A stretch of 59,824 bases of DNA, taken from NCBI GenBank assembly GCA_003990765.1, contig RBNJ01000017.1:1-59824 (forward strand). Direction: 5' to 3'. The position numbers and the translations under genes are program-made. This DNA comes from Jimgerdemannia flammicorona (taxonomy: Eukaryota). Shown one piece after another: positions 2,621 through 54,348 of this stretch (position 1 is its first letter; each line of letters starts with the position of its first letter). The notes under the pieces are model-generated. The model saw only the letters and a list, made by a program, of their open reading frames with translations. It was not told the DNA's origin and did not search any database.

Positions 2621-5615
2621 AATGGTGGGAAGGAGTGTTGGACTCAGATGGTGTACTGGTGTATGGTGTACAGGACATTCTTGGATTGCTGAAGGAGAGA
2701 TAGAGTGGATTGTGAAGTGAGGAGGAGGGTGGGGCAGATGCCGCTACAATTGAACAAACATTGGAGGATTGGCACCCACCACAAGTCGAAGGGCTAGGGG
2801 ACCTGGGGATGCCAGTACAGGAGGATGAGATCTATCAGGTTCTTGCCATGACAATGCCAGGTACAGTACCTGGGGAGGATGGTCTAGTGCTCCCAATGAA
2901 TTGAATCGAATCAAATTTGGCCCAAACTCGATTTGATTCGATCGAATCAAGGGTCCAATTTGATTCAATTTGAATCGAATCAAAGGTCCAATTCGATTCG
3001 AAGTTCGATTCGAACCTTAATTTTCAAAATATAATAACTCGACGAAAACTCATCCAAATTTAACGTATTTTAGCTTGTTAGATTCACCGTATTAATGTGA
3101 TTCTAACAAGCTAAAGTACATTAGATTTGGATGAGTTTACACTGAGTTATCACATTTTGAAAATTAGGGTTCGAATTAGACCCTCAATTCGATTCGACTT
3201 TTGATTCGATTTGAATTGATTCGAATTGAAAAATCCCCAATTCGATTTGACTTGTTTAACCCTCAATTCGATTTGATTTGAATTGATTCGACTCGTTTGG
3301 GAGCACTAGGATGGTCTGCCCTGGGACTTTTGGAAGCAAATGGTTGGAGTCCCAGAGATAATGGGAGAGATGACAGTACTGTGCGACCTCATTCTACAGA
3401 CAGTGAGGTGGGTGGGGGAGCAGGACCTTGGGCTGGTGACACTGCTTTACAAAAACAAAGGAAGGTAGGAGGATTGGAAGAACTGGCAGCTGATAATGTT
3501 GCTAGATATAGACAGAAAGTTGGTAACTAAGGTGGTGGTGGCAAGATTACAGAAGGTGGCCCAGCAAGTCATGGGTGTTGAGCAGAGGGGATTTATGGGT
3601 GGTCGGCTCATCAGGGATGGCACTGCCTGGGTACATGGCATTATCAAAGGGGCAAGGGCCTGTGGACTGGATGGGTGTCTAGTCTTCTTGAACCAGGAGA
3701 AGGTGTATGACTGGGTGCGAAGAGTCTGGCTGGCAAAAGTTTTGGATAGAATGGGGGTTCCACATCAGTTCCGGTCAGCAATAGTCAGCCTACTGGAAGG
3801 GAGTAGGGCTGCTCTCACATGTAATGGACATAGAGGGGTAGCATTCCCCTTAGGTAGGGGGGTGCCCCAGGGGGACCCATTGTCTCCCATTTTGTATGCT
3901 CTTTCTCTGGAACCCCTTATGGATAGGATTAGGCAGAGGATAGCAGGGCTCTCTGTCTTTGGCATAGGATGGAAAGTTGGGGCCTTTGCTGATGACATAG
4001 TGGTGGGTTTGGGTTCGATTGCTGATGTTGAAGAGCTCAAGATGACTGTGGGTGATATGAGGAGAACTCTGGAGCTAAGCTAAATTGGCATAAGTGTGAA
4101 ATGATGGTGCTAGGCAATGGTCTGGTGGGAGGGGAAGTTATAGGAACAATCATCCCCACTAGTGAAGCAGTGCGGTACTTAGGTATCTACTTGTCAGTCT
4201 ATGGGTCAGTTCTGCCCAGGCTTTGGTGGGAGCAGAGGATTAGAATCTGGGAGGAGGCCCTGCAGAGTTGGGGGGGAAGGCAATTTTCTCTGGCAGGGTG
4301 GGTCTCGATTTTGAATGTCTACTGGCTGCCAAAGTTGTGGTACCTGGCATATTATCTGGACTTCCCGGCCTAGGTGGTGAAGAGATTGATGAAGTTGGCG
4401 AAGGGATGGATTTGGGCTGGCAGGCAGAGTCAGATTGGTTGGGAGACCTTGTCCCTACCAGTGGCAAGAGGTGGTCTTGGGCTGGTTGACTTTACAAAAT
4501 AGTTATACTGCTTGAGAGTATGGTGGCTTAAGAGGGCAGTGGAATTGCGAGGAGGTGGATGGGTTCCTCTGCTACAGAAGATCTGGGAGAGGCGGTCATT
4601 GCCAAGGGGCTCAACTGGCAATCTACTCTCATTGGTAGGACTTCAGCATACTGAACAACTACAATATAAAGGATTTTAGTGGGGGATTGCAGAAGGGGTG
4701 CACTGCATTGGTATTCGTTAGCAGAGGAATGAAGGAGAGGAGGTTTGGGACCTGGCAATGTGGAGATGAGATTGTATACTGCTGGGTAGCACTCCCTTAA
4801 TTGAGTTTGACATTGGTGATGGAATGGAATGCCAAAGGGGACCAGGCCAGGATTTGTGGCCTAGTGGTTGGCAAGGAGTTGGAATTGGCGAAGAGTGGAA
4901 CTGGCATGGTGTTTGGACCTAGAGTGCTGCAGTGAGAAAGTGGTTGCCACCAAAGTACTGGGTGGTCTAGTGGTGCATGCTGTAGAGGAATGTTATGCTC
5001 AACTTTTACTTGGGGCACCTTGTTGTAGGGGGTTGCTTTGACTGTGAGGAGTGCCATAATGTAGGGCAGGAGGGGGGTTATGTACAGATGTCTGAACATT
5101 GGCTAGGAGAGTGTGAGGTGTTGGGGGATTTCTGGCAGACAATTGGAGAACACTTGGGGGTACAGGGTAGGGGAGATGAGGTATGGGGGAGGTGGGAGGA
5201 CTCGAGGGATAGATTGGTAGGGGGGATAGAGAAGAAGTAGCTTACTTTGGATTGGGCTTTGGCTATTTGGGTGGAGCTGGCCAGTCATTGGCTATTTGTT
5301 TTTGAGGACAGGAAGAGACAGGGCTTGGGGGACCAGTTGCTGCAGTGGCATAGGCTTATGGAAGACACCTTAACGGGCTGGTGGCTAGGTTGGGGGATGC
5401 AGGGTGGTTGGAGGTGCCACTTGGTGGAGAAAATTTGTGGGCAAAGTGGGGGGAGAGTTGGGGTAATTGGTGAAAGGGTGATTTTTATTCGTAAGGAGGT
5501 GGGGAGAGACCTCCCTGTGGGAATTGGGTAGTGGGTAGTGATGGTGTATACTTATTTATAGACTGGTAATAAAGGCAGAGTCCAAGTGACTATAAAAAAA
5601 AAAAAAAAAAAAAAA
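2621..5615 (+). mobile_element. 5'-truncated L1-clade LINE with degenerate RT, interrupted by a MITE
   Basis: RT motifs QRGF, RGVPQGDPLSP, FADD, VRYLGI (3496-4373); C-terminal zinc knuckle ~5030-5115; AATAAA then poly(A) 5594-5615; no TSD found. Confidence 0.92.
2885..3308. mobile_element. Non-autonomous hAT-type DNA transposon (MITE), 424 bp
   Basis: 12-bp TIR tagtgctcccaa/ttgggagcacta; 8-bp TSD ggatggtc at 2877-2884 and 3309-3316; the paralogous LINE site near 36505 has a single ggatggtc; many TTCGA/GAATC subterminal repeats; internal palindrome 3009-3175. Confidence 0.92.
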
Positions 5616-12049: not shown

Positions 12050-12548
12050 ACTTCCTCCTGAATAGATGGTCTCGTCTCTGAGATATCTATTCAAACTTCC
12101 ATACTTCGACTGTCTGTATGGTTTTGTACTATTCAATTTGTTGCATGACTGTCTCCCAATGATGTCTCCTTATTTTATCAAAGTCAGTAGGGGTTACTCC
12201 TCACAGGTGGGCTAATGCTGATTCATCTTCTTGAAATAGCTTGTGGATCCTTTTGGCAATAGTGATCTGTGAGTAGGAGAGTTGGCACTCTGCGATCCAG
12301 TCTTCTTTGGTCTTTGCTGGATCCTGGTTGAGCACCCGTCCAAGCTTGAAGTACTCTTGGAACTCTGCCTGATATTGGTAGGCACTAAAATGTAAGATCT
12401 GAGAGAGATGAGTCTGCACAATACTCTGAATATCCTCATAGTATGCCTCTATGGTCGGAGGCTTGGTGGTGTGCCATTGTCTTTCAATAGCCCTTTGTGC
12501 AGCACTAGTGATCTTGAGTGCTGCTGCAGTGCTCCAGTTATTGGCCAT
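12045..12548 (-). pseudogene. Family B accessory ORF3 of unknown function (up to ~167 codons, in-frame stops)
   Basis: The 115-aa ORF 12201-12548 continues past TGA as GVTPTDFDKIRRHHWETVMQQIE*; its ATG overlaps the integrase end; similar to the LTR ORFs of families A and C. Confidence 0.75.
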
Positions 12549-18600: not shown

Positions 18601-19432
18601 TGAGAATTGAGATAACTATCTCTCAACTGCCCTCTCTGTCCTACAAGACATATGGTCATAGAGTACACACTTTACCCCAAGAGAACTGCTCTTCAGAGAA
18701 GAAGATTCTGATGAAACCTCAGCCATAAATCTAGACCTAACTTGGAGACAGGTTGACTCAGAAATCCGAGACTATACCAAATCAGGAAGAAGGCTGAAGA
18801 TTACATTATCAAGTTATAAGCACTGATAAGAAAGAATATAGAAAAGAATTATAAGAACCTAGAACTCATCCAAATTAGAGAAAAGGCCCTACTGTATCAC
18901 AATATGGTAGAAGCCTCATGGTTGTGAAAACTGGAGCTCAAATGAGAAGGATCCTTCTACATGCAAGATATCAAGAGAACTATCTTTTGGCTTAGAAAAA
19001 TCTCAGAGACTATACTGCCTACTATGGTACACAGAAACAGACTCAAGAAGTACTATGAACCTATACAAGAGAAGCAAAATGTAATAACTGCCCATGAGGT
19101 TCTAGTCTGTGAATCATAACAGTATGTCCCATAACTAGTAGGCTATCTGTCTGGACTATTCTCTAAGAGATATAGTACCAGAAACTACTTATCCATGAGA
19201 CTTTTGAAGCTAGAGGAGTTTGAACCATCAACTGATTGATCAAGATCAGAATTAGGTTCTTGCTCTATATAAAGGGAGCAACCCTTCACCATTATGCCAA
19301 AATACATAGGGAAAATGCCAGCCCATAAACACTACTTTTTGACCCCCTGCCAAAGGTTATGGGATTAGCAAATTTTTCAGAACTGGACCAATGAATAAGA
19401 ATATTCAAGAAGATCCTTATTTAGGAGAAAGA

Positions 19433-30877: not shown

Positions 30878-33800
30878 CAGAAGGTAGTTCTCTTGATATC
30901 TTGCACATAGAAGGGTCTTTCCCATTTGGGCTCCAGTTTTTGCAACTATGAGACTTCTACTATATTTCAATATAGTAGAACCTTTTCTCTAATTTGAATG
31001 GATTTTAGGGTCTTGTAATTCTTTTCTGTATTCTTTTTTATTAGTACTTGTAACTTGATAATGTAATCTTCTGCCTTCTTTCTAATTTGGTGTAGTCTCC
31101 AGATTTCTGAGTCAATCCATCACTAAGTTAGATCTAGATTTATAGCTAAGGTTCTATCAGAATCTTCTTCAAAGAGTAGTTCTCTTGAGGTAAAGTGTGT
31201 ACTCTGTAACTGTATACATATCTCATAGGATAGAGAGGGCAGTTGAGAGATAGTTATCCCAATTCTCATATATATCTAAGATCTTGGCCAGGATATTCTT
31301 GAGGGTCTTATTGGTTCTTTCTATCTATCCATTTCTTTGAGAGTGATATGTAGTAGTCTTGATATGCTGAATCTTATATTTCTGATATATTATCTCATAG
31401 AATCTATTGACAAATTCTGTGCCATAGTCTGTGGTGATTTGCTTTGGTATCTTATAGTGGCAGATGATTTCTCAGTACAGGAAGTTGTCTATAGAGAGAA
31501 CATTGGCTTCTTGTAATACTCCTGCTTCTATCCATTTGATAAAGAGGTCTAAAATAACTATAATATAGTGGTTTTCTGATAGAGTTACTGGTAGTAGTCT
31601 AATGATATCTATTATGATGTGGTGGAAGAGGATAGATTTGATTCTTGATGACCCAGGTGCCTGGTCTTGCTGATCTTATTTCTGTTTTTGGCACTTATCA
31701 CACTCTTTGACAGATTGGCACAAGTTTTTTTCCATCTTAGGCCTCTATATGATTTTTCTTGTCTTGTTATATATATTAGTTCTTCCTAAGTATTCTTATT
31801 TGGGTACTTTCTTTATTATTTAATACTTTTTATATTTGGATATGATAAGCTTTCCTCTTTTTCTGAGTATAGTATTGTCTAGTTTAAATTGTTTCTAAGT
31901 CCAGTTGATAATAGTACATAATAGTTCAGGGTTTAAGGTGGTTGAGTATCCTTTGCTGTCCAAAGTAGTTGATTAATCTATAGTATGGCTCCATATTCAT
32001 ATTGAATAGTCTTGATGGGGGTGTTTCAAGATATCCTTGAAAGTGCATCAGTATTGGCATTAGTTCTTTCTGAGTAGTATTTGATAGTATAGTTATACTC
32101 TTGCAGTCTATAGATCTATCTAGCATATATTTCTTTGAGGTTCAGAGTGTAGAATTACCAGACAAGAGTAGAATAGTCTATTTGAATAGTGAAGTATTTC
32201 TTAGCTAGATAGTAGTAGAACTTGTCTACTGTCCAGACTACTGCTAAGCATTTAAGCTTATATAACTCATAGTTCTGTTCTACTCTATAGATACCTCAGC
32301 TTACATAGGAGATAATATATTCATATTCATCTTTTTTCTAAGCTAGCACTGCTCCAAGTCCTATAGCACTTGCATCTATCTGCAGAATGAACTCTAGGTT
32401 TCAATCTGGTCATCTAAGAATGGGTGCTTGGGTCAATCTGATCTTGAGTTTGTTGAAGATTTCTTGATATTCCTTGATCTATCTCTTTCTTCAGTAGCTC
32501 ATAGATAGGTACTGTAATGTTGGAGTATTCTTTGATGAATCTTCTATAGTAGGAGATCAGTCTAAGGAAAACATAGACTTCTATAGTTATTCTAGATCTT
32601 GGGTAGGCTGCAACAGTCTCAATCTTCATAGAGTCTATATGAATTCTAGTCTGGTTGATGATATATCTTAGGTAGGCAATTTCCTAAGCTATAAACTTAT
32701 ACTTCTTAAGCTTGATATAGAGTTCATACTTCTTGAGCTTCTTGAGAGCTAACTATATATAGTTGACATATTCCCATATAGTGTTACTGGAGATGATCAC
32801 ATCATCAATATAAACAAAAAGCTATTTTTCAATTTCATTACTAAAGACTCTATTCATTATTTACTGAAAACTTGCTAATTCTGAATAGTATTCATAGATA
32901 GATATAGGTGATATTAGGTGTAATAAAGACTGATTTCTCACATCATCTTTCTCTAGTACCATTCAGGTTACACAATCTTTAAAAAGTACTTACAACATCA
33001 TTTTTGGAGAAAAGAGACTAGTAATATGGTAACTGACAGATAATCTGAGGTATATACTAGGTAGAGTGGCCCAAGCATATTTAACTAACAGTATGTGGGG
33101 AGAAGCCCTGGACTGGGGGAAAGCATGAGGGGGCTACTGGTAGGAGGACATGAAAGAGGAGGAGGCAGTAGTAGAGGACAGGGGTCTAGGAGGACAAGCT
33201 TCATAGAGATAGTGAAGGAGAGACAGCAGGCATTGGGGCTGAAGAGATGGCTGAGAAAAGGTAAGGAGATAGAGAAGACAGCAGAATATAGGGGAGTAGT
33301 TCTTGGCAGTAGAGGCAGTAGAGCTAAAGGTGTAGTAGCTGGAGTGAGTATGATGGCTGATAGTGATGGGACTACTAATCTGGAAAAAAATCCAGATATG
33401 ACTGCTGATGACATAACTGAGTGGCTGGGGCTTGGAAGACAGGGGAATTGAGCAGATGGTGTGATGGGCCTAGTGGTGGCCCCATTACTCAAAAAATCGA
33501 TCTTGGCATTTGTAGTTACACTGTACTTCCAAGGCCTAGTAGTGACAGTAAAAATGGTACTGGGGCTTATCACTAAGCAGGTGGCTGAGACAGCATTGGT
33601 AAAGTTTCTGAAGGGATTAGAGAGAGTGGAGGTGGGCTTTGAGAAGGCTGGGTCTTTAGAGGAGGTACTAAAAGTTGGATTGATTGTTGGGAAGGTGTGT
33701 GTACCAATAATATGTTACCTGAGATGAGATCCCTGGGTGGTACAACTGCTGGTAAAAGGAGTATCTATGGTGACAGCAGTGGAGACAAGAAGGAGAGTTG

Positions 33801-36800
33801 AGGAGGTCATGGTAGAGTATGGAGAGGTAGTAGATATCAGATTCAGAGTCTGGAAAGAGACCTCACTCAGAACTGGGGATATTGATATGAGAATTCAGCT
33901 AGCAGAGAAGGAAGCTACTGGGAAGGCAAGAGACTGACCTTTGGTGATGATCTGGGGGATGATCTTGTATAAGGTAATGAGAGTGAAGGAGAGTGAGGAG
34001 GAGGAAGAGGACTTATTAGAAGTACTGAAAGAGCTGAGTAGTACTGTAGAGCAGTGGGCAAAGGCTTGGAAGACTTTTATGGAGTCAACACACTTGGAGG
34101 TGGTAGATGGGAAGTAGATTCGAGTGGACAAGGGGTAGTGGGAAAGAGCTCAGGGACATAAGAGACAGAAGGAGATGCTAGCTAAGCTGGAAGATAGACT
34201 ACAGAAGGATGCAGATGGAATAGTGGAGGTGGGGGAGGCCAAAGCAAGTGTCTGAGTCAGCAAAGACTGCAGGAGTGCAGAGAAGGAGACAGGAGAGGAC
34301 AGGGAGGCAACTGGTGATGACCCATATGTTGATGGTATGTTTGAGGTCTGAGAGGAGGCCTGGGAGAACTTGCCTACCCCTACTTCTCTTATTAGGCAAG
34401 GCCTGACTTCCTGAAGCAGGGTGGTAGAGGATGTGCTAATATAGGGGACCCAGTGAGTGCAATTTGGAGTTTCAGAGGTGGTAAATGGGGGACAAGTAGT
34501 AGCAGTTAGAGAGGAGGAACTGGTGGATGTCCCAGAGGTGTGGGATAAGTCTGTGAGTATTAGAGCTGACACCATAATACTGAAAGGAGGGAGGCTGGTG
34601 ACTCCTAGAGGGAAGAAGGTGGGGAACCTACTTTAGATGTGTAGGATAATGAATAATCTGGCAGCTGAAGAGTTGGGAGAGGTAGATCTGAGAGTAATAA
34701 GTGATGAGTATTGGGTGCAGATCCTGTAGAGGGATAGAGTAGTGATGGTATTGAAGACAGAAATCCTTATAGTGTATCTGGAGAAAGAAGAGTATGAGGT
34801 GGATAAGGAGTAGAAGGCAGAGCTGGCAGGTGTTGTTGGTGAGAGGACTAAATACTGCTGGACCAAGCATCATGGATTGCAGCTCTGGTAGAAGGTCTGC
34901 CTGGAGTATTGGGAGAAGTTTGAGAAGAAAGCAGATGGAGATATGAATGAGCTGTTGGCTGGATTGGAGGCTCAGAGGGCTGAAGAGGAGGAGGAGACTG
35001 CAGAATATAATCTGGATAGGGTGCAGAAAGAGATGAATATGGAGCAGTAGAGAAGGATATAATAACACACCATATTTCATTATGAATAGTACAACTAATA
35101 TTTTTTCTTTGAATATGAATAGATTACAGAGTACTTCTCAATATAGGAACATTTTTACTTGGCTGAAGAGATTGGAGGCTGATATTTTCCTCTTGCAGGA
35201 TGTCAGGTGTGAGGATGATTTGGATAGGCTGGAATAGAAGAAAGAATGGAGAGGTGAGGCAGTTTAGAAGGGCAAAGTTGGGATTCTGGTCTGGAAAGGC
35301 AGAGGGGAGATGCAGGATATAAGAAGCTAGGAGGATAGATTGGTCTGGAGAGAGTGGATATATATAGGTTGGGAGCCAGTCACAGTGGGCTCCTGTTACT
35401 GCCTCACTGTACAGGGTGAGTATATGAATTGGATGATAGAGCTCCAGAAGAGTGGGGTCCTTGCAGAGGCTGGGGTGGATCTACTGGGTAGAGACTTTAA
35501 TATGGTCTAGGACATCCTGATGGATAGAACAGATAGAGAATGGGGAGCTGAGAGTAAAAGTGGAGGGCTAGCAGTATGAGAGGAAGTGGAAAGGCTAAGT
35601 GCTCTGGTAGATACTGATAGGGAGTATTAGGGAGATAGGAGGATATACACACATTGGGTAGGGGGCCTGAGGATGAGGATTGACTGGATTTTGATGGCTA
35701 GCTACTGGGGCTTAGATGTTTGGAAGTCACTGGAGGTGGAATGGTGTCTATGGTCAGATCATTGAGGGCTATTAGGACAGGGGCATTTTGGGGGGAGTAG
35801 GGATGGGCCTGGACATTGGTACCTCAATTTCTCTTTATTAGATGATAGGATTCAGTGGGACAAGTGGGCTGAAGACATTCAATTGAGGGTAGAGAGCTGG
35901 AGGCAGAAAGGTACCCCAGTTGGTGTTTGGTGGATAAGGATAAAAGAGATGACCAGGGTCTACTGGAGTGAGGCTGGTAAGGAGGCTGGGAAGCAGAGGA
36001 GGTGATGGGTGAGATGGGCTTCTGTTAGACTAGTTAGACTCTTAGAAGATTGGACAGAACTAGTAATATTAGAGGGGGGAGAGGATTGGAGATTGATGAG
36101 AGCAAAAATAGAGGTTGGAAAATTATAACAGATGTTGCAGAAAGAGAAAGAGGCAAGGATGCAGAGCTTGGTGGCATGGCTTCACTGGCAGGGTTTGGAG
36201 GAAGGAGAGAGGCTCTCAAAGTATCTCATGAGGGCTCTTCAGGCAAGAAGAGTACAGCAAAGATAGGAGGGGGTACTTGACTCTGATAGTATACTAGTAT
36301 ATAGTATATAAGACATTCTTGGATCATTAAAGGAGCAATGGAGTGAATTATAGAGTGAGGAAGAGGGCAGGGTTAATGCTGCTGCTATTGACCAGGTATT
36401 GGAGGATTGGCACCCTCTACAAGTAGATGGGCTGGGTGACTTGGTGTTGCCAGTATAAGAGGAAGAGATCTTGCCATGACAATACCAGATATAGCACCTG
36501 GGGAGGATGGTCTGCTCTGGGACTTCTGAAAGAAGATAGTGGGAGTCTCAGGAGTATTGGGTGAGATGATGGCATTGTGTGATTTTATACTATAAACAGG
36601 GAGATGGATGGGGGAGCAGGATCTGGGACTGGTGACATTGCTTTATAAGAACAAAGGAAGGTGAGAGGACTGGAAGAACTGGTGGCTGATTATGCTATTG
36701 GATATAGACAGAAAGTTGATAACTAAGGTAGTGGTTGTGAGGATATAGAAGGTGGCCCAGCAAGTCTTAGATGTTGAGTAAAGGGGCTTTGTAGGAGGCT

Positions 36801-36899
36801 GGCTCATTAGGAATGGTACAGCTTGAGTACATAGAGTTGTTGAAGGGACATGAGCTTGTGAACTAGATGGGTGACTGGTCTTTTTGGACCAGGAGAAGG

Positions 36900-38975
36900 T
36901 GTAAGAGGGTTACTTGTTAGTGTAACCATTATGTAGTTCTGGAAGGGTTTTCTGGAAGCTCTGGATATTCTGGAAGACCATTTTCTTTAAGGTTAAGATC
37001 AATTTCATATAGAGTGCATTCTCTATACTCATTGATTTCAAGTTCAGATTGATATCTTAACCAAAGTCCTTTTTTGGACTAGTTTTGGATGTTCAGGATT
37101 TTCTGTTTTTCAGGAAGTTCAAGAAACTAAGGCCAGCTTAGTTGAATTGGTATATCACTGCAGACAATACCTAATTAGAAAATTTCATAATAGGGTTAGG
37201 AGTGAGACCTAACAGAGAGCAGATTTACTTAAGAGTGGTTTGTGAGTTATTAAATAGGTTTATTTGCTATTCATGATATTGCTATACTAGGAGTAGTTAT
37301 ATGAAGGAGTATTGTAGAGAAGTGCTCAGGAGTTGTATTCAGATTGTTCAAGTATTCAAGTCTGAGATTCTGAGGTCTGGGGGAGGGGGTATTTATACTA
37401 GTGAGAGGCTATCTGGACTATACTAAATATGAATATAGTACTTAGTACCTTGCTGAGTTGGAATATAGTTATATAGTACAAGTGTGATTTGATATGTCAA
37501 GGGATCATCTGACTGCTGAGTCAGTTATATCATACAAGGCTAATCTAACTATACTATGACTGCTAAGCTATCTATAGATTTAGACACTATCTGGGTAGTC
37601 TTTGATAATACATATTACCATTGATGACATCATCTCTAATAAAGTAGTTATCTAGGAACAGTTGTTTGCAGATTAATTCTCCTTATTTGCTGAGGTAATA
37701 ATATATTGAGACTTCGTCACCATCCCACAGGATAGCATTATCTGTCTCATATACTAAGTAAGGAGTTGGTGGATAAAGGAGGGGTATGTTATCTTTACTT
37801 TCCTCAGATTTGCTATTTGCATACCTTCTATAAGTTATGGTACTATGAGTTGCTGAGTTGTAGTAAGCTGGTGACTGTGGTTCATGTTACTCATATTCAG
37901 GTGGTAGAGTAGTTGGTTTGATCTTGAGAGTTGTCTGAAGATACAGATTGTATTCTCTGGTTTCTTTGTTATAGTTGAAATAATCAGGGGTGAATGCAGG
38001 TTAGTATTCATACTAATGGTCATTGTCCTAATAAGTCTCATAGGTGGTTATGAACTGTTATAAGTTCATCAGCAAGGTTGGTAGAGTGATCAGGGTTGGT
38101 AGGGATCCTTGGCTTGAGGTCATGTCAGCATCAGAGGGATCATTGTCTTCTACTTCATCTTTATCAAATCAGATTATATTATAGATATCCTTCATAGTAT
38201 ATCTGACTTAAGGCATTTGCAGGATATAGTTATCAGAGTATAGGAAGGTTCTGTCTGTGGTCTTAATATATTCAAGATACTTATAGTTGAGTTCTTATAT
38301 TATATCATCTATTTGGCCATAAGATAGAGTAGCAACCATTTCAGCAGTAGTAGCTTGGAGGTAGGAAATAATGGTGCTATACTTATAGAAGAGTTCTTGA
38401 TACTTGCGAGCAATGAGTTTTTAGTGTTGAGATATCTAGATAATATCTATATCATAATGGTGTTTGACCATGTCTTCTAGGAGATAGCTGATCTGGTAGT
38501 AGCTTGAGATTTGTCCAATTTGGTAGACTTTGCTAAGTATGTTCAGGGCATTCCATCAGGCTTCCACAAAGTAGAGGAGTGCTAGGCTATGGATATTTAT
38601 AAGGGATAGAGGGGGTGTGGCTCGGTTGACAATAGTATTTCAAATATCAGCATAGATATAGTTGTAGATCTTGGTGGTTATGTTTGTATATTCAGGAGTT
38701 GAGGTTGTATATTTGGTTTGTTTTGGTTTTCTGTTTTGACATATCTCAGTACTTAGTATATATATATTTGGTCCTGATTGGTAAGATCTCATTTGTATAA
38801 ATCTTATATTCTGTAACTTCATATTGACTTAGCTTTATATATAGTAACTTTGGTTTGACTCAGCTTCATGATCTTACAGGTGGTTTTCAGATTTTTTCAG
38901 AGGTTGTATGTAACTTCAGTGGCTTGTTCTGAGGGTGACATGTGATTTTGGTGACTTGGAGGTTGTGCACTTACA
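36900..38975 (-). mobile_element. Solo LTR, family C, 2076 bp
   Basis: TGTAAG...CTTACA termini; perfect 5-bp TSD gaagg at 36895-36899 and 38976-38980; removing it restores LINE RT DQEKAYD; minus-strand GTATAAATACCCCC at ~37385-37398. Confidence 0.9.
38100..38822 (-). pseudogene. Degenerate ORF inside the family C LTR, homologous to the A and B accessory ORFs (ends approximate)
   Basis: A single frame read through CGA/CAR-type stops: ...NRATPPLSL...SSYYQISYLLED...KLIARKYQELFYKYSTIISYLQATTAEMVATLS...DKDEVEDNDPSD. Confidence 0.65.
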
Positions 38976-41900
38976 GAAGGCTTATGATAGGGTATAGTGA
39001 GTCTGGTTGATAAAAGTATTAGATAAGACTGGGATACTGCACCAGTTCTGGTCAGCAATGATCAGCCTACTGAAAGAGAGTAGGGCTGCTCTCATATATA
39101 ATGGATATAGAGAAGTATCATTTCTCTTGGGTAGAGGTATATTCCAGAGAGACCCACTGTCCCCTATTCTATATGCTCTCTTTCTGAAACCTCTAATGGA
39201 TAGAATTAGGCAGAAGATAGTGGGGCTCTCTATCTTTGGAATTGGGTGGAAAGTTGGGGCCTTTACAGATAACATAGTGGTTGGCCTGGGATCAATTGCT
39301 GATATTGAGGAGCTCAAGGAGATAGTGAAGTGATATGAGGAGAACTCTGGGGCTAAACTCAATTGGTATAAGTGTGAAATAATAGTGTTAGGCAATGGCC
39401 TAGTAGGAGGGGATGTTATTGGAACAATCATCCCTACTGGTGAGATAGTGTAGTACTTGGGTATTTATTTGTCAGTATATAGATCAGTATTACTCAGACT
39501 TTGGTAGGAGCAGAGGATTGGAATCTGAGGGAAGGCCCTGTAGAGTTGGGGGGGGGGTGCCACTTATCTCTAGTAGGGTATGTCTCAATTTTGAACATCT
39601 ATTGGCTGTCAAAGTTATAATATCTGGCTTACCATCTGGACTTCCCAGCCTGGGTGGTGAAGAGATTGATGAAGCTGGCCAAGAGGTAGATCTGGGCTAG
39701 AAGACAGAGTCAGATCAGTTGGGAGGTCTTATCCTTACTGGTGATAAGAGGAGAACTTGAGCTGGTTGACTTTCCAAAGAGGCTATACTGCTTGGGAGCA
39801 TGGTGGTTAAAGAGAGCAGTAGAGTTGAGAGGGGGCAGCTGGGTCCTCCTATTGCAGAAGGTCTGGGAGATGAGGTCCTTATCAAGAGGCTTGATAGGAG
39901 ATCTTTTATCATTGGTTGGGCTTTGGAACACTGAATAATTGTGATACAAAGACTTCTGGTGGAGGGTAGCAGAGGGGGTGCACCACATTGGAATTCATTG
40001 GCAGGGAAATAAAAGAGAGATAGCTTGGGACCCAGTGATGTAGAGATAAGACCAAGTGTTGCTGGGAGGCATCCCCTTAGTTGAGTTTGACATTAGTGAT
40101 GAGATAGAATGCCAAAGGGTACTAGGCCAGGATCTGTGGCCTAGCAGATGGCAGGGAGTAAGTATCAGAGAAGAGTAAAACTGACATGACATTTGGGCCT
40201 AGAGTACTGAGGTAAGGAGGTGGATACTGCTGAAGTACTGGGTGGTCTGGTAGTGCATGCTGAGGAGAAATGTAATGCTCAACTTTTGCTTAGGTCACCT
40301 TATTGAGGGGGGTTTCTTTGACTGTGAGGAGTGCCAAAATATAGAGCAGGAAGGGAGATATGTGCAGATACCTGAACATTGGCTAGGAGAGTGTAAAGTG
40401 CTTAGTGACTTTTGGCAGACTGTTGGAGATTATTTGGGGGTAGTGTATAGGAGAGATGGTGCATGGGGTAGGTGGGAGGATTTGAGGGATAGACTGGTGG
40501 GGGGGGGGGTGGGGAAGGAGTGGCTTACCTTAGGATAGATTTTGGTGATTTGGATAGAACTGGTCAGTCACTGGTTACTTGTTTTGAGGATAGGAGGTAA
40601 TTGGGCTTAAGGGACTGGCTGTTGCATTGGCATAGCCTTATGGAAGACATATTGACAGACTGGTAGCTTGGTTGGAGGTTGCAGGGTAGTCAAAGGTGTC
40701 ACTTGGTAAAGAAAGTCTGTGGGCAGAGTAGGGGGAGAGTTGGAGTAATAGGTGAGAAGATAGTCTTTATTTATAATGATAAGAGGAGGAGCTCCCCTGT
40801 GGGGATTGAGTAGTGGGAGGTGATACTGTATACTTATTAATAGACTGGTAATAAATGGCAGAGTCCAAGTAACTATAAAAAAAAAAAAAAAAAAAAAAAA
40901 AGGCTAATTTCTCACTGGTATCTTGAGTGAGACCAATCTGATAGAAGCCTGAGAACAGATTCAAGGTGGTATAGAATTTGGCTTCACTTCTAAGAGTGAT
41001 AAGAATTTCTTAAATATTTGGTAAGAGCTGCATATTCTTCTTAGTAATTATATTAAGCTTTCTGTAATTAATGCAGAGTCTTAGGACAAACTCTCCAGAC
41101 TTACTTTCTTTCTTTAGAGTGAGGACAATGAGTGAAGTCCAGGAGCTGATAGCTTACTTGATAATACCAGTTCATTTTCTTAAGTTCTGCTCACAGTCAT
41201 TCTCTATAGGTAGGTGGTATGGGTCTGACTTTCTGATAGATGAGCTTGGTATCACTAGTATCAACTTCATAATAGTACTTGGATTCTTGATTATAGATGT
41301 CTCTAAAGTCTGTGGCAAGTATTTCTTTATTCTGATACAGTATCTTGAGAAGTTGTTCTTCTAAAGAAAGTTTTCTCCAATGATATATATGTATGTGCTT
41401 ATTCTGGTCCTTATCTTTCTTATACTTAAGTTTAGTAATCTTGATAGTAGCATAGACTCCTCTTTCAGTAGATCCAAAGCCTTGTTCTCCTCTCTTAGTC
41501 TTGATGAGTTCAATGACTTCAGTGATCTTAGGCTTCTTGACTTCATGGATTAGTATCTGGCCAATCCTGTCATACTTCTTGACTTCAAATAGAGTGGTAA
41601 AGTTGTGATTTCTGACTATAAGAAAGATCTCACCAGTGTAATCAGGATCAATGACTCCTCCTTCAACTGAGTTTTTACTCTTGGTCAGACTGCTCTTGGT
41701 CTTGATAATTCCAACATGGTTCTCTGGTAACTTGACTTCAATTTCAGTACCAAGTAGAGTGATGGTCTGTAGTTTGAGGATAATATCTTGGATACTGGTA
41801 AGGTCTATTCCTACAGCTTCTTCAGTTTTGTATTCTGGGATCTTGGCTTTAGGGTGAAACTTCTTAACCTTGAGAGTAATATCTGGTTCTTATTTCTCAT

Positions 41901-47150: not shown

Positions 47151-48453
47151 CCAAAATTAATACTATGTAGTCAGTAGAGTCGGCCACTTTTGTTTCCTTC
47201 ATGCAATCCAGAATTGGAATCCAAAATCAAAGTGGGGACTCGCGTAAGCTGGATGCAGTATTCCACAAACAGGAGTAGGCATTCAATAGGCAATGTTCAC
47301 AAGAACATCCCTCCTGAAATCGCAATGTGGGCGTGAGTTCGAATCGGTTGCACCATCCAGCAACCAAATAATTACATTACATATGCTATAGTTTAAGCAA
47401 GTCGGCTTCTTCCAGACCTTCCAACGCCACGCCGCCGCAGATCTATTGATTGCGAGATAGCATCTTATCTACGATCGATACATCTGCTCGTCTCCCGATA
47501 TTGAATGGAAAATCGCAATCAATTTTTATGCATGCCTGTCCTGATTAACGAACTAATGTAAAAGCATGAAGTCGATAAAAATCCCAAAATACGACACACG
47601 TCTTTGTCGTCGCAGCGCTCTGTCGCCTTGACAGCCAAGCAGGTCGGCACCTCCGCCATCCCCGAGCCGGAACCGGAGCCCATACCCATCCCCAGCAAAC
47701 CGCCGCGCAACCACTGCGTTACACCGCCGCCACCATCCGTTTGCTTATGCGAGACTAATTTTGGTTTTTTGCGGGGCATGGGGCTGGTTTATGCTTCCAT
47801 ATTAGTTTTTATTTTATTTATTTTTAGGGGGACAATAAGAACTATTGACACATCGAGCTTAGTCTTGTTACATTGAACGCGGAGTTTTTGACAGCGATCG
47901 TTATACGAAGCATGTTATGTTCTCTGTTTCCTGCTGTCAATGTGACGCCGTTGTTTGACATCTTTATTCAATTATTCAATGCAGAAACTAGCAATCAAAT
48001 TGCAGATGTGTCCAATTTTTACTGATTTATTTTATAGACTTCTACAAACTTCTCGTATTCAGCGTCGTCCGAGAAATGGAACTTTGGGACACGAGGTTCT
48101 GGTATCGGAAAAGTACCGTAATATGGGGCGAGCATGCCCGCCTCTTCCTTTTTTTAATATACCGGCTGGAATAATATCGCAACGTGGTTCTACAAATACC
48201 CGGAGCGAGAGTACCGGGACAGTGTTTTCCCGAAATATCCGAATCAGGCTCCTCACTCGATGAAATGGTTAGATTCGTTTTTGTCCTACGCTTGGCAGGT
48301 TCGTATTGGTTTGCGGAGTATTTTTTACCCCGATTGGGTGCGCGACGGGCCACACATGACACGAATTCCGGATTCGGGGCATCTTCCGATTTCCTGATTT
48401 CCTGATTGGGCCAGGTTCGAAGCAACGGCAAAAAAAAGCTTTCGACAGAAATG

Positions 48454-48460
48454 TATAAAA
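48454..48460 (+). promoter_or_regulatory. Candidate TATA box of the acetate channel gene
   Basis: TATAAAA 75 nt upstream of the ATG, followed by a pyrimidine-rich leader. Confidence 0.5.
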
Positions 48461-48528
48461 ACGAGCTACCGTCGCCTTTCTTCAATATTCACCACTCTCC
48501 CAATCAACCAACTCAACACTCTTCAAAC

Positions 48529-49278
48529 ATGTCCGACGCCGAGAATAAACACTCCATGGCCCACCATACACCTGCCCCCCCCCAGGTTGCCAATCCCGGA
48601 CCCCTCGGTCTATCAGCCTTCTCCCTGACCACTTTTGTTCTGTCTTGTTACAACGCTGGTGCTGGCGTTAGCCCCACGGGCCCCGCGACCATCATCGTCG
48701 GTCTCGCCCTCTTCTACGGTGGCCTTGTTCAGGTATGTGTCTTGCAATCATGCATTGGAATATCACTAGGCCTGCTAGTCTAGCCTAACAGCGCCATCCA
48801 CCACTCTATCTTCCAAAAGTTGCTCGCTGGTATGTGGGAATTTAAAGCCGGCAACATGTTTGGTGCTACCGCCTTCAGCTCCTATGGCGCCTTCTGGCTT
48901 TCGTTTGGTGTGATCTTCATCCCCTGGTTCGGCATCCTCGCGCCCTACACTACCAAGGACGCCGCTGGCAATGACTTCACCTATGAGCTCGATAACGCTC
49001 TCGGTATCTACCTGCTCGCTTGGACCATCTTCACCGGCATCATGCTCATTGCCTCCCACCGTACCTCCGGCGGCCTCGTCGCCCTCTTCTTCGCCCTCTT
49101 CGTCACTTTCGTCCTTCTCACCGCCTCCAAATTCAACGCAAGCACCACTTGCCAAGTTGCTGGTGGTGCCTTTGGCATCATCACCGCCATCATCGGTTGG
49201 TACGTGGCTCTCTCTGGGCTCTTGACCCCTGAGACCTCCAACTTCACCCTCCCCGTTCTTCCCCTCAAGAAGAACTAA
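48529..49278 (+). CDS. ADY2: GPR1/FUN34/YaaH (Ady2/SatP) acetate transporter, 220 aa; exons 48529-48732 and 48820-49278
   Basis: Signature [34 protein letters not shown] and multiple hydrophobic segments; 87-nt phase-0 GT..AG intron with a CTAAC branch site. The symbol is family-level. Confidence 0.96.
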
Positions 49279-51665
49279 AGAATTGCCTCCTTAATCTGCA
49301 CAATATTAAATATAATTGCTCCAACTCAGTCTTTATAGAGGATATCGCATGTAACAGAATCCTCATTGTGTACCCCTACTTTTATTTGCTCGTTTGTAAT
49401 TCTAGTTCTCACGTTTCGTTTAATGTATGATGGATCCTATGAAAAACGAATACATATAAACTGAACGATCCGCATTATGTCCTTTTTGGCTGGTATGTTG
49501 AAGAAATCTTATGGTAATCATCGGCGCAACAACATTTACCCGTACTAAATTCAAGCGCCGATAAACCTGTGTAATGTTAGAGTTTGACATGCTGGGGGCG
49601 CATCCACTGGTTCTAAAAAAAAAAAAAAAAAAACGCCGATGGCAAAGTGGTTTACCCTTTTTGTGACTGGGTTTTGCGCGTCCTCTCGGCCATTGATTAT
49701 TACGTTTCCGGTAACCACGTTTTCGGAATCTGTGCCTGAGTGGCGTGGTTTTATTTTTCGAAACAAAGACACATATAGATAAGCTGTGCCGCCACATGGA
49801 CCTACTATAGGTGCGCATAACTGAGTTCTTATAGACAAACTTCATTAATAATAGAGTACTTCTGAATAAAAAGTAACCCGTTTGAATAAATATTTGTATT
49901 ACACTCATAGGTCTGTATTACATTATACTAAGGGAACGCAAAATCACCACACGTCCTAGGTTGAGTACCATGTCTTAGGTTGGAAGTACACGAAATCACC
50001 ACATCCTAGTGAATAGCGGCTCCATAAGACAATGGCTGGCAATATTCTTTGACTTCGTTTAGATAGAGAGTGAATAAGAATAGTGTGTTCCATGCCACTG
50101 CCAAATCCAGTTCACTAAAAGAACTAAAAGAGGAGGTTCACTAAAGTGTCCACCAGAATTATTTTTAGAAAATATCAATTTGCTACTATGGCTTGTTTGT
50201 CACGATTGGAGCCTCATGATCAGGATGGTTGGGAATTTTAAATTATGCATGATGATAAGAATGAGACTGGAATGGAGAGCAGATCATTCATGTTCACAGT
50301 AATAATAATAATCACATCAGTATAATAAATTAACACCCCAACATCATAATGATATATATTATTGCCAAAGATGATAGCATCAGATTCATGTTACTATCAT
50401 AGTTATATACTAAATAGTCAATGATAGCTAATTTTGAAATAGAAATAACAGTCTTATTAGTAATAATAATAATAATTATAATATATAGATACTTAAAAAT
50501 CACTATCAATAATTAGGTAACAGTAATTAATGAAAAGCTAATAAGTATATATGTACAAAACTAGTAAAAAGATAATTTATAATTATACCAATCAGGTCAA
50601 TAGCTTGGTCAATTCGATCAATATACTTGTAAGGAGAGATTCTGATAAAGTAAAAGTAAAGATAAAGCAATTATCCTTATATGTAGATTGTTAGATATGT
50701 CCTGTTTTTTGCGTGGTGCATCTTGTGCGATCCCCGCCCGAATTTTATTGATCTTCCAGGATTAAAGACTCGCTTTCATGCGTATTCGAAGGTTGTTGAA
50801 TATTTAATTTTTGGGAAGGGAGACATGGAAAGGGGATGTGGGGAGGATGCTTCCAGCGGCGGGAATTTGCATCGTGGACAAAATATTATCAAAGGCTTGA
50901 CCTGTGATAATTATTGCCGTGGATGCGTCTATAATTGTGTTATTATGATTTATGCTTCTCGACGGTTTTTGCAAGACGCTGTCGGAGCTGTTGGTAAGAC
51001 GTACGGTTTCGCTCTACTCGAGACAAATCCGAATAACCATCATGTCTAGCTCTTATTTGGTCCAACGAGGAGATTATCAGAAATAGAAGGTGAGAATCCT
51101 CTTCCTTGAGAACTGAGTCGTGGACGAGATAACATGTGTGTGAAAAGCACTGTTTTAACCAAGATTAAGAATCTGTGCATTGTATTGACAAACTTCAGAC
51201 TAGGTAAAAAAAAAAAAAAAAAAAAAACTATGAATGGGCTCATAAATTTATCGGTACCACGTCACCCGCAGTGAGCTCTCGTTCTTCGCCTTTTATTTGG
51301 CCCCAGCTCCCACTACTATTGACGCGGTGAAAAGGAGGTTTAAATTCTTTGGTGTTTCCGACACGCTACAGTCAACCCACCAGCTGTAACGCTCGATTCC
51401 CAATTCATAGTGGACAGTGTGAAGATGCCAATATAGACGATGATCCAGGGGCATCCAACAAGATGGGCGCACGCTTCTGGTGTCATTATGCATGCAAAAA
51501 ATGGGAAGAGAAAGCAGTTTCTACCTAGTGCTCGTGCATCTGATCTCTTTGGGCGTTTGCATGACATCATCCGGCGCCCTCCTTTCATAATTTTCACTTC
51601 TTAGCTTCGAACTCATCACCATCCTTCTTCTTTCCTTCTAGATCACCCGCTTGTTCAAACACATC

Positions 51666-53034
51666 ATGCCGACGACGGAAAAATACCTAATTCTTGCCTG
51701 CAACGCCGGCTCCTCTAGCCTCAAGTTCAAACTCTTCAATCCCACCAACGACTCCCTCTCCCTGCTAGCCCAAGGCAATTGCGCCGAGATTGGCACCCAC
51801 TCCCCCCACTTCACCTGCCACGTTCTCTCCCCCGACAACAACGTCGATCGCGACGAGCTCACCCTAACCACCCACGAGGCCAGCTTCTCGTACCTCCTCA
51901 GCCACCTGACCACCGTCCTCGCCGATCACGCAGCCATCCGCATTGTCGCCCACCGTGTTGTTCACGGCGCATCCAAGTTCCGCGAGCCCACCCGCATCAC
52001 CAATGACACCCTCGAGCAGCTCGACGCGCTGGGCGATTTAGCACCGCTGCACAATCACCGATCCGTTGTCGTGATGCGCGAGTGTTTGCGCGTTCTGCCG
52101 AAAGCGCGGAACATTGCATTTTTCGATACCATGTTCCACACTACGATCCCGGAGCATGTGTACACGTATCCGTTGCCGAATAAGGTCGCTAAAGAGAAGG
52201 GTATACGCAAGTTTGGATTTCATGGGTTATCGCATGGATTTGTGGCGAAAAAGGCGGCCGAGTTCTTGGGCGGGAGGGTTGAGGATTTCATGTTCATCAC
52301 GATACATTTAGGTGCTGGGTCGAGTGCGTGTGCGATTAAGCACGGGAAAAGCTACGATACTAGCATGGGATTGACGCCCCTGGCAGGTAATTTTGAAATA
52401 TCGTGTTTTTATATTATTCAATTGATTTTCCTCTTCTTTTGGCTGGTTGCCCTTCTCTATCAAATTTTAACAAACTCGCATTATTTCCCTTCAAGGTCTC
52501 CCCGGTGGCACCCGCTCCGGTGACATCGACCCGACAGCTGTCTTTCACTTCCTCCCTTCTCCCTCGTCCCCCTCCCCTAGCGGTCTCACACACGCCGAGG
52601 AAGTTCTAAACCACGATTCAGGCCTTCTAGGGATCTGCGGCACATCCAACGTCCGCGAGATCGTCGACCAGATGCGTCCCCGCAGCTCCGTATCGGACGA
52701 TGCCCGGCACCGCGCCCAGCTCGCCTTTGACCTGTTTGTCAACCGGATCCAAAACTTTGTGGGCGCGTACCTGGTCGCGCTCGAGGGCGCCGACGCCGTC
52801 ATCTTCGCGGGCGGGATTGGCGAAAATTGCCCCGAGATCAGGGAGGCAGTGTGCAGGAAACTGGCATGGGTCGGTGCCGGGATCGAGCCCGGGAGGAATG
52901 AGAGGGCTAAAGAAAAGCTAGATAAAAATGGTGTGGTTGATGTGGGGGTGGAGGGAAATAAGATTAGAGTGTTGGTGGTGAAGACAGATGAGGAGAGGGA
53001 GATGGCAGAGGTAATCGCGGGAAAGGGATTGTGA
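51666..53034 (+). CDS. ackA: Acetate kinase, 419 aa; exons 51666-52386 and 52496-53034
   Basis: NAGSSSLK, AHRVVHG, APLHN, FDTMFH, RKFGFHGLSH, HLGAGSS, SMGLTPLAG|LPGGTRSGDIDP, FAGGIGEN, TDEE; a 109-nt GT..AG intron restores the frame. Confidence 0.97.
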
Positions 53035-53514: not shown

Positions 53515-54348
53515 ATGTCTGCTGCCCATCAAACCTCAAGGTCAAAGAATCACCAAGGTATCTCGGTCAAGGAAAGAATGTTCCAAGACATCAGAAGAGC
53601 CATGAGGACCCACTCAAGAAGGACTCCTAGTGTCAACCTGAGTACTGCAGACCCTTATCACTTTATTCTCTACCACTGTGAAATGGAAATAAGGATCACT
53701 ATTGCTATCAAATGCCTCCAAATATGGCAGGAGTATAAAATAGGAAACCTCCTCTGCTGGGAGTTCCCACAAGCCAGCATCCAAGAGCTACAAGATGCCA
53801 CTCCCATGGATATATGCAAAACAAGGACAGCTAAGAAGATCTATCAGATCTTCAGGCATGTATCATGGTCGATCCCCAACTTGGAGTATGTTAGAGTCTC
53901 AGACTTCAGAGATCTATCATCCCACCATATCAATGCACTAGAAGCCAGGGTGGCTACAGAAGCCCAATCCACTATCACCCTCAACAGTAAAGAAGTAGAA
54001 GACTTCTGGCACTCTATCTTTCAGGACAACCCAGACCAATTCCTGTAAGGATTGATCTCAGTATTCCAAGGCCCAAGCATCCAGATTAGACCTCCCCAAG
54101 ACCCCATATTTGTTTCCTATTTTGTGGAAGAGAACCTCATAGACTGGAGAGCTCCAGATCTTGTTCCTGATTTTCCCACCACAGCCAAATGTGATGATGT
54201 CATCGGCGATGACATCATCCCACATGACATTGACATATATGAGACACATAACGAAGCATACAAAAATGACAAATTCACAGATCTCATCTCCTTTAGTGAT
54301 GATGATGACAAGGATGAAGCTTCTATGGTCCTGAACTTTCTGCTCTAA
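53515..54348 (+). pseudogene. LTR (U3)-encoded accessory ORF, 277 codons, with one premature TAA at 54046-54048
   Basis: ORFs 53515-54048 and 54052-54348 share a frame; the copy at ~20220 reads QFLQGLIS (CAA) across the stop; the terminal ...LL* is conserved in the full LTR copies. Confidence 0.85.

What the first reader, a model, noticed from the sequence alone, without database searches (positions are those of the whole stretch)
36900..38975. 2.08-kb solo LTR that retains a decayed accessory ORF
Seen: TGTAAG/CTTACA ends, a 5-bp TSD and clean interruption of a LINE RT. A long minus-strand frame broken mainly by C>T-type stops lies upstream of a GTATAAATACCCC box like family A's. Inference: an independent second case of an LTR-resident gene, left behind after LTR-LTR recombination. 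Its assignment to Gypsy is inferred, since no internal region is present.
Basis: partly seen in the sequence, partly recalled or inferred. Interest (0 to 1): 0.72.

Follow-up and report, generated by a model that had tools for sequence, protein, structure and literature searches.

The report
Protein gene inside chromovirus solo LTR
This 2-kb piece is the leftover terminal repeat of a fungal jumping gene; unusually, that repeat carries its own conserved protein gene of unknown function, distantly related to extra genes of two other jumping-gene families in the same DNA.

Summary
Confirmed. Window 36900-38975 is a solo LTR (minus sense, TSD GAAGG) that splits a LINE RT. Other genomic copies abut a tRNA-Met PBS or a polypurine tract. 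Two are complete elements with paired LTRs, a shared TSD and gag-dUTPase-PR-RT-RH-IN-chromodomain, so the family is a Ty3/Gypsy chromovirus. The U3 holds a real 365-codon gene: ATG in 30 of 33 copies, 264 of 265 premature stops of C>T/G>A type, 20 natural copies open, and transversion pN/pS 0.175 against 1.5 and 2.5 in the other frames. The window copy is dead. "Independent" is doubtful: a profile of the accessory ORFs of two non-chromovirus families in this window (one in U3, one after integrase) hits the N-terminal domain at E 1.7e-7, above all 5000 shuffles, although the RTs share only about 35% identity. No Pfam, PDB or confident fold match was found. Best guess: a soluble regulator (helical core, acidic tail) expressed from its own promoter in U3. 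Function and expression are not shown. This scan noted the same kind of LTR gene on other pieces of this genome.

The parts
36900..38975 (-). Solo LTR (2076 bp) of a Ty3/Gypsy chromovirus; sense is the minus strand
36895..36899 (+). 5-bp target-site duplication GAAGG (left)
38976..38980 (+). 5-bp target-site duplication GAAGG (right)
37580..38681 (-). Decayed copy of the 365-codon U3 gene: start codon lost, 13 in-frame stops, private frameshifting insertion near the 3' end
   Evidence: open in 20 natural copies
38247..38681 (-). N-terminal helical domain (aa ~1-145), homologous to the accessory ORFs of families A and C
   Evidence: low-confidence helical model
37580..38246 (-). Acidic, Pro/aromatic-rich C-terminal region (natural copy P0002: 49 D/E, 6 K/R, 24 P, 30 F/W/Y in 220 aa)
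38756..38781 (-). CCAAT plus weak TATA-like motif about 75 nt upstream of the ORF start: candidate promoter for the U3 gene (inferred)
   Evidence: parallel TATAAAA about 80 nt before the family A ORF in 12 of 14 loci
37386..37398 (-). Main TATA box GTATAAATACCCC near the inferred U3/R boundary
   Evidence: present at LTR position ~1576 in 11 of 11 copies
37259..37264 (-). AATAAA, candidate poly(A) signal in R (inferred)
   Evidence: A[AT]TAAA at LTR position ~1700 in 11 of 11 copies
32941..40901 (+). Host LINE element interrupted within its RT by the LTR
53515..54348 (+). Family A U3 ORF (about 280 aa), distant homologue
12087..12548 (-). Family C 153-codon ORF between integrase and PPT, distant homologue lying outside the LTR

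Best explanation
Shown: this is the solo LTR of a high-copy chromovirus retrotransposon whose U3 contains a conserved 365-codon sense gene. Every integration therefore carries the gene twice, and LTR-LTR recombination leaves one copy behind. This copy was then inactivated by C>T hypermutation (mainly at CpG and CpA). Supported by a profile test: the N-terminal domain belongs to an accessory-gene family that other Gypsy lineages carry either after integrase or in U3. Inferred: the gene is transcribed from a small promoter at the 5' end of U3 and ends at the LTR's own poly(A) signal, so any intact LTR (5', 3' or solo) is a self-contained expression cassette. Most speculative: the product is a soluble regulator of the element, with a helical binding core and an acidic activation-type tail, that boosts transcription from the main LTR promoter in trans, like foamy-virus Tas in logic.
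For: PBS matches the genome's tRNA-Met 3' end over 12 nt in the least decayed copies. Of 33 copies, 12 carry a PPT, 11 a PBS, 8 are solo with a TSD, 2 other. Full elements: C1851 (TSD TGAAG, LTRs 87.9% identical) and C792 (TSD TAGCC, 91.3%). Domains: dUTPase and protease; RVT_1, RNase H, integrase Zn, SH3, Chromo. ORF: ATG in 30 of 33, stop at codon 366 in 31 of 33, 264 of 265 stops transition-type; no indel between LTR positions 291 and 1351 in 32 of 32 copies; pairwise transversion pN/pS 0.175 vs 1.49 and 2.48; shared transversions 8/1659 N vs 19/295 S, p=1e-10. A metagenome homologue at 66% identity exists. Homology: 17.7 bits, E 1.7e-7, 0 of 5000 shuffles reach it. Tail composition and no transmembrane segment (max 19-residue hydropathy 0.86). 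Parallel upstream TATA in family A.
Against: No expression data. The upstream TATA-like motif is weak (CATATATAC in 46 of 92 matches) and its conservation among young copies is not independent evidence. No known DNA-binding motif; AF2 pLDDT is only 32.5 and 46. The family C homologue (153 aa) lacks the acidic tail, so the shared core need not be an activator. Single-family profile comparisons are weak: ours vs A E 0.014, above 30 of 30 shuffles; ours vs C E 0.029, not above the best shuffle. The broken window copy itself scores only 2.7 bits against the A+C profile.
Confidence: 0.42

Rival explanations
1. The protein is an anti-silencing or counter-defence factor that protects the element from host cytosine methylation, RIP-like mutation or RNAi; its place in the LTR multiplies the dose.
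For: The host attacks these repeats hard: against 20 open copies, the window copy shows C>T at 57% of CpG and 41% of CpA sites; LTR CpG o/e is 0.05. Three of the large families here carry the gene (first-look candidates 5771, 6973 and 2491). Acidic tails can mimic DNA (recalled). Fungal transposons with TET/JBP genes exist (PMC12730594, search listing only).
Against: No similarity to any known enzyme or suppressor. All examined copies are mutated anyway.
Confidence: 0.2
2. The protein works after transcription (genomic-RNA export, packaging, or as a particle chaperone, like CERV or Rev) and is expressed from a spliced or 3' subgenomic RNA, as ordinary post-pol ORFs are; its place in U3 is an accident of the PPT moving upstream.
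For: Family C has the same core directly after the integrase stop and before the PPT. Rotifer ORF3s are typically expressed from spliced messages (PMC5408684, passages). CERV is a novel Gypsy accessory protein needed for gRNA export (PMC10309623, abstract).
Against: The N-terminal domain is not basic (18 D/E vs 13 K/R). Two families show a TATA-like motif at the same distance upstream of the ORF.
Confidence: 0.2
3. The protein is a self-limiting (copy-number control) or competitor-restriction factor, usefully supplied also by solo LTRs.
For: A promoter-ORF-poly(A) unit would persist in solo LTRs (8 of 33 copies). Ty1 p22 is a recalled precedent.
Against: These families reached very high copy numbers. 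The selection signal is in variants shared between copies (replication lineage), not in single insertions.
Confidence: 0.1
4. Env-like or superantigen-like membrane protein, as in errantiviruses or MMTV sag.
For: Position only: 3' end of the genomic RNA, overlapping U3 as MMTV sag does (PMC9147501, passages).
Against: No hydrophobic segment (max 19-residue hydropathy 0.86); no Pfam or PDB hit.
Confidence: 0.03
5. The ORF is an unselected captured host-gene fragment or an accidental open frame.
For: No family assignment; Atlas recognition value is below its threshold.
Against: pN/pS 0.07-0.18 on transversions in the sense frame only, fixed start and stop, homologues in other lineages and in a metagenome.
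Confidence: 0.02

Closest known systems
Fungal chromoviruses (Ty3/Gypsy, chromodomain-bearing), including those with dUTPase (PMC2864245, passages read)
   Same: PR-RT-RH-IN-chromodomain order, TG...CA LTRs, 5-bp TSD, tRNA-Met PBS, dUTPase domain. That paper also draws an 'add. ORF' of unknown function in some elements.
   Different: The LTR is 2.07 kb and holds a complete selected 365-codon gene. The passages seen describe no ORF inside an LTR; the supplements, which list per-family structures, were not read.
MMTV sag (PMC9147501, passages read)
   Same: [quoted passage not shown]
   Different: sag is a superantigen of a mammalian retrovirus (membrane protein, recalled). This protein has no transmembrane segment and no sequence similarity, and sits in a fungal retrotransposon.
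Additional ORFs of LTR retrotransposons: plant aORFs (PMC7264820, part 1 of 3 read), rotifer ORF3s (PMC5408684, passages), Retrosat2 ORF0 (PMC3485330, passages)
   Same: Extra conserved ORF in most copies; the same ORF type shared between unrelated lineages (rotifers).
   Different: Those described lie in the internal region (pol to 3' LTR, or upstream of gag). Here the gene is wholly inside U3 in two lineages and internal in a third.
Foamy-virus Tas/Bel1 (recalled) and Cer1 CERV (PMC10309623, abstract only)
   Same: Functional analogues: element-encoded regulators of the element's own expression.
   Different: No sequence or fold similarity shown; their genes are not LTR-contained.

Membership tests
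Solo LTR | TG...CA ends flanked by an exact TSD, with no PBS, PPT or internal region | tested here: met
Solo LTR | Same sequence occurs as paired direct repeats around gag-pol with one shared TSD | tested here: met
   C1851 and C792
Ty3/Gypsy (Metaviridae) | pol order PR-RT-RH-IN | tested here: met
Ty3/Gypsy (Metaviridae) | tRNA-complementary PBS after the 5' LTR and PPT before the 3' LTR | tested here: met
Chromovirus | Chromodomain at the integrase C-terminus | tested here: met
   Pfam Chromo E 4.6e-12 in C792
Chromovirus | RT phylogeny placing it in a named clade (Tcn1, MarY1 etc.) | not tested
   no reference RT set was fetched
Env-like ORF (errantivirus, plant env-like) | Transmembrane or signal segment | tested here: not met
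   max 19-residue hydropathy 0.86
MMTV sag-type LTR gene | ORF located in U3, upstream of the main TATA box | tested here: met
   ORF at LTR positions ~289-1386, TATA at ~1576; U3/R boundary inferred from motifs
MMTV sag-type LTR gene | Homology to the superantigen family | tested here: not met
   no Pfam hit for 3 open copies apart from a sub-cutoff RAMP hit in one
Retroviral transactivator (Tas/Tat-like) | Activates its LTR promoter in trans | not testable with these tools
   only the tail composition is suggestive
Retroviral transactivator (Tas/Tat-like) | Recognisable nucleic-acid-binding fold | tested here: inconclusive
   model pLDDT 46; best Z 6.0 among generic helical bundles
Accessory ORF family shared with window families A and C | Profile similarity above shuffled controls, in one consistent register | tested here: met
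   17.7 bits vs shuffle max 9.2 of 5000; hhalign 19.99 vs max 17.78 of 100; weaker pair by pair

The most novel reading that the evidence does not exclude
An undescribed accessory-gene family moves between distant Gypsy lineages (chromovirus and non-chromovirus) of a fungus and has repeatedly become lodged in U3 with its own promoter. Thousands of LTRs, solo LTRs included, would then be autonomous cassettes for a trans-acting activator or anti-silencing protein that fuels genome-scale retrotransposon expansion.
Probability: 0.3. Interest if true: 0.82.

Novelty: new variant of a known kind. Interest (0 to 1): 0.6.

Why it matters
LTRs are treated as non-coding, and solo LTRs as inert promoter relics. 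Here a 2-kb LTR carries a gene under purifying selection, so LTR-LTR recombination removes gag-pol but leaves a whole accessory gene. The same protein core in a chromovirus and in two non-chromovirus families (RTs about 35% identical) points to module exchange or deep ancestry, and offers a testable candidate for how these families reached high copy number despite heavy C>T mutation. It also warns that dating by LTR divergence assumes neutrality, which half of this LTR did not obey during replication.

Tried and rejected
Pfam on the window frame, 3 open copies, P0003, P0007 and P0008: nothing above cutoff. PDB by sequence and by profile: nothing significant. HMMER against 1.84 billion representatives: 4 hits; P0003 and P0004 are true relatives, P0005 and P0006 are repeat proteins scored by summed weak repeats and were rejected. 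ESM Atlas: best 0.82 (whole) and 0.89 (aa 1-140), unnamed clusters, some Mucoromycota; leads only. AlphaFold2: pLDDT 32.5 and 46; fold searches gave only generic helical matches, so no fold is claimed and none excluded. The search for related loci found no relatives in metagenome or viral contigs. RNA: no RNA holder listed; laying run X1 (contigs, RNA only a guess) gave 530 contigs with mostly C>T/G>A differences and a depth peak over R/U5 that cannot be read as expression. The idea that gag starts at an ATG in U5 was rejected: ATA in 26 of 26 matches and out of frame in most. The first tRNA pattern included CCA and found nothing; it was redone without. The antisense mirror frame also has few stops and low pN/pS on shared transversions (0.41), but lacks a fixed start and homologues, so it is taken as a shadow of the sense frame. 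Locus L064 was out of register, which inflates the singleton counts of the 'intact21' and 'all54' rows; those rows are not used. L057 is cut by its contig end. Literature: 8 searches showed no fungal LTR-internal gene; the phrase search returned only an MMTV review. The library lacks most subscription journals.

Full report
Observation. The element is 2076 bp with TGTAAG/CTTACA ends and an exact GAAGG duplication, and has no second copy in the window. It interrupts a LINE: the flanks match an uninterrupted LINE copy at 3308-5615, the right flank is RVT_1 (E 2.7e-10), and the break falls in the LDQEK/AYDRV motif. CpG o/e is 0.05. The host looks fungal: the window holds acetate kinase and Gpr1/Fun34 genes, the nearest Atlas clusters include Mucoromycota (leads only), and the element has a Tf2-type SH3 domain. 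I did not establish the taxon.

It is an LTR. A DNA search of the own genome (231 Mb) scored 40 of 6133 candidates and returned 46 matches, most of them full-length at 82-85% identity. I classed the 33 distinct full-length copies held, the window's included: 12 are preceded by a polypurine tract, 11 followed by a PBS, 8 are solo with a TSD (at most 1 mismatch), and 2 are other. The PBS is complementary over 12 nt to the 3' end of a tRNA-Met(CAT) gene of this genome in the least decayed copies. Contigs C1851 and C792 hold complete elements with paired LTRs (87.9% and 91.3% identical) and one shared TSD each. The internal region reads gag-like, dUTPase, protease, then RT, RNase H, integrase, SH3 and chromodomain. 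The family is thus a dUTPase-bearing chromovirus; dUTPase in fungal Gypsy elements is known (PMC2864245, passages). LTR sense is the window's minus strand.

The ORF is a real gene. In 33 copies chosen by DNA similarity, not by intactness, the frame starts with ATG in 30 and ends at codon 366 in 31; 264 of 265 premature stops are one C>T or G>A change from a codon seen in the same column. No indel occurs between LTR positions 291 and 1351 in 32 of 32 copies; many of the indels outside lie in simple repeats, so this is supporting evidence only. A protein search scored 114 of 5771 candidates; 22 had no stop in the matched codons. I fetched all 22: 21 give an ATG frame of at least 340 aa (13 exactly 365; 8 longer through variable upstream ATGs), 1 is cut by a contig end, and 1 of the 21 is out of register at its end, leaving 20. 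Avoiding the deamination bias, pairwise transversion pN/pS in the 33 unselected copies is 0.175 in this frame against 1.49 and 2.48 in the other sense frames (pairs are not independent). Transversions shared by 3 or more copies are 8/1659 nonsynonymous against 19/295 synonymous (p=1e-10), while C>T/G>A changes are neutral (pN/pS about 0.9). So the gene was selected while the family replicated and decays after insertion. The window copy has lost its start codon, has 13 stops and a private frameshift; relative to 20 open copies it shows C>T at 57% of CpG, 41% of CpA, 15% of CpC and 10% of CpT sites.

Relatives. Pfam, PDB and fold searches give nothing reliable. One metagenome protein is 66% identical. 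Within the window, family A carries a ~280-aa ORF in its LTR (open in many genomic copies), and family C a 153-aa ORF between the integrase stop and the PPT. A and C are clear homologues (hhalign probability 89%, E 2e-6). Our protein against either alone is weak (E 0.014 and 0.029; only the first beats all 30 shuffles). An HMM built from A and C rows only scores the open copy P0002 at 17.7 bits (E 1.7e-7 for one sequence, residues 60-134); none of 5000 shuffles reached it (max 9.2), and hhalign gave 19.99 against a maximum of 17.78 in 100 shuffles. The carriers are distant: RT-RH identity to A is 34%, RT identity to C 36%, A to C 54%; C has no chromodomain hit, and A places dUTPase after, not before, the protease. 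Whether by exchange or by ancient inheritance is untested.

How it probably works. In 11 of 11 full LTRs examined the ORF (positions ~289-1386) lies upstream of a TATA box at ~1576 and an A[AT]TAAA at ~1700, i.e. in U3 (boundaries inferred). On genomic RNA it would be the last cistron and poorly translated, so a separate message is expected (inference). A CCAAT plus weak TATA-like motif sits about 75 nt before the ATG, and family A has TATAAAA about 80 nt before its ATG in 12 of 14 loci. This suggests a promoter-ORF-poly(A) unit inside each LTR. The protein has a helical N-terminal domain (low-confidence model), a very acidic, Pro- and aromatic-rich 220-aa tail, and no transmembrane segment. 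I favour a soluble regulator, most likely a transcriptional activator of the LTR (0.42 for the whole chain; about 0.97 that the gene is real, 0.8 for the homology, 0.55 for the internal promoter). Against it: family C's version has no tail, and no binding fold is recognisable. Anti-silencing and RNA-export roles remain open. No expression data were available.

Comparison and novelty. The layout recalls MMTV sag, which overlaps U3 (PMC9147501, passages), but the protein is unrelated and not membrane-type. Additional ORFs of LTR retrotransposons are well known but described in the internal region (PMC7264820, part 1 of 3; PMC5408684, passages; PMC3485330, passages). The Podospora crapaud LTR has a variable but short U3 with no ORF mentioned in the passages seen (PMC10787394). 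Eight searches of the held library showed no fungal LTR-internal gene; unread supplements of PMC2864245 could bear on this. Earlier notes of this scan describe the same kind of gene, probably including this 365-aa family, on other pieces of this genome. Verdict: a real feature, an ordinary solo LTR in origin, carrying an unusual and apparently undescribed U3 gene. New variant of a known kind, interest 0.6.

Noticed in passing
window 48406-49275 (+) and 51642-53031 (+): Host gene island among the repeats: a Gpr1/Fun34/YaaH acetate-transporter gene next to an acetate kinase gene, the latter in two overlapping frames (intron or frameshift); a possible acetate-use cluster.
   Followed up: partly
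window ~19070-19420 (+), between the family A integrase end and the LTR at 19433: A further ~350-bp stretch with a possible short decayed ORF between integrase and PPT in family A, in addition to its LTR ORF.
   Followed up: no
L080:570-1600 (G000:C792): The gag frame of this family has a long (~330 aa) N-terminal extension that is open from the PBS onward, with no obvious ATG and no Pfam hit.
   Followed up: partly
L078 vs L080, between chromodomain stop and PPT: The 3' untranslated stretch has length variants: C8000 and C1851 have about 160 bp more than C792.
   Followed up: no
L058:2248-2555 (R/U5 part of the LTR): Run X1 shows hundreds of short contigs with summed depth 100-1000 times higher over R/U5 than over U3; run type uncertain, cause unexplained.
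   Followed up: no
whole window: Repeats show C>T loss at CpA as well as CpG (41% vs 57%), a RIP-like spectrum in a fungus that does not look like an ascomycete.
   Followed up: partly
window 54552 (+), 23257 (-), 9624 (-), 11861 (-), 37398 (-): All three Gypsy families carrying the accessory gene share a GTATAAATA core in their LTRs despite otherwise unalignable LTR sequence.
   Followed up: no
L017:976-2070 region: One solo LTR has a 283-codon open antisense frame over the ORF; taken as a mirror of the sense frame.
   Followed up: partly
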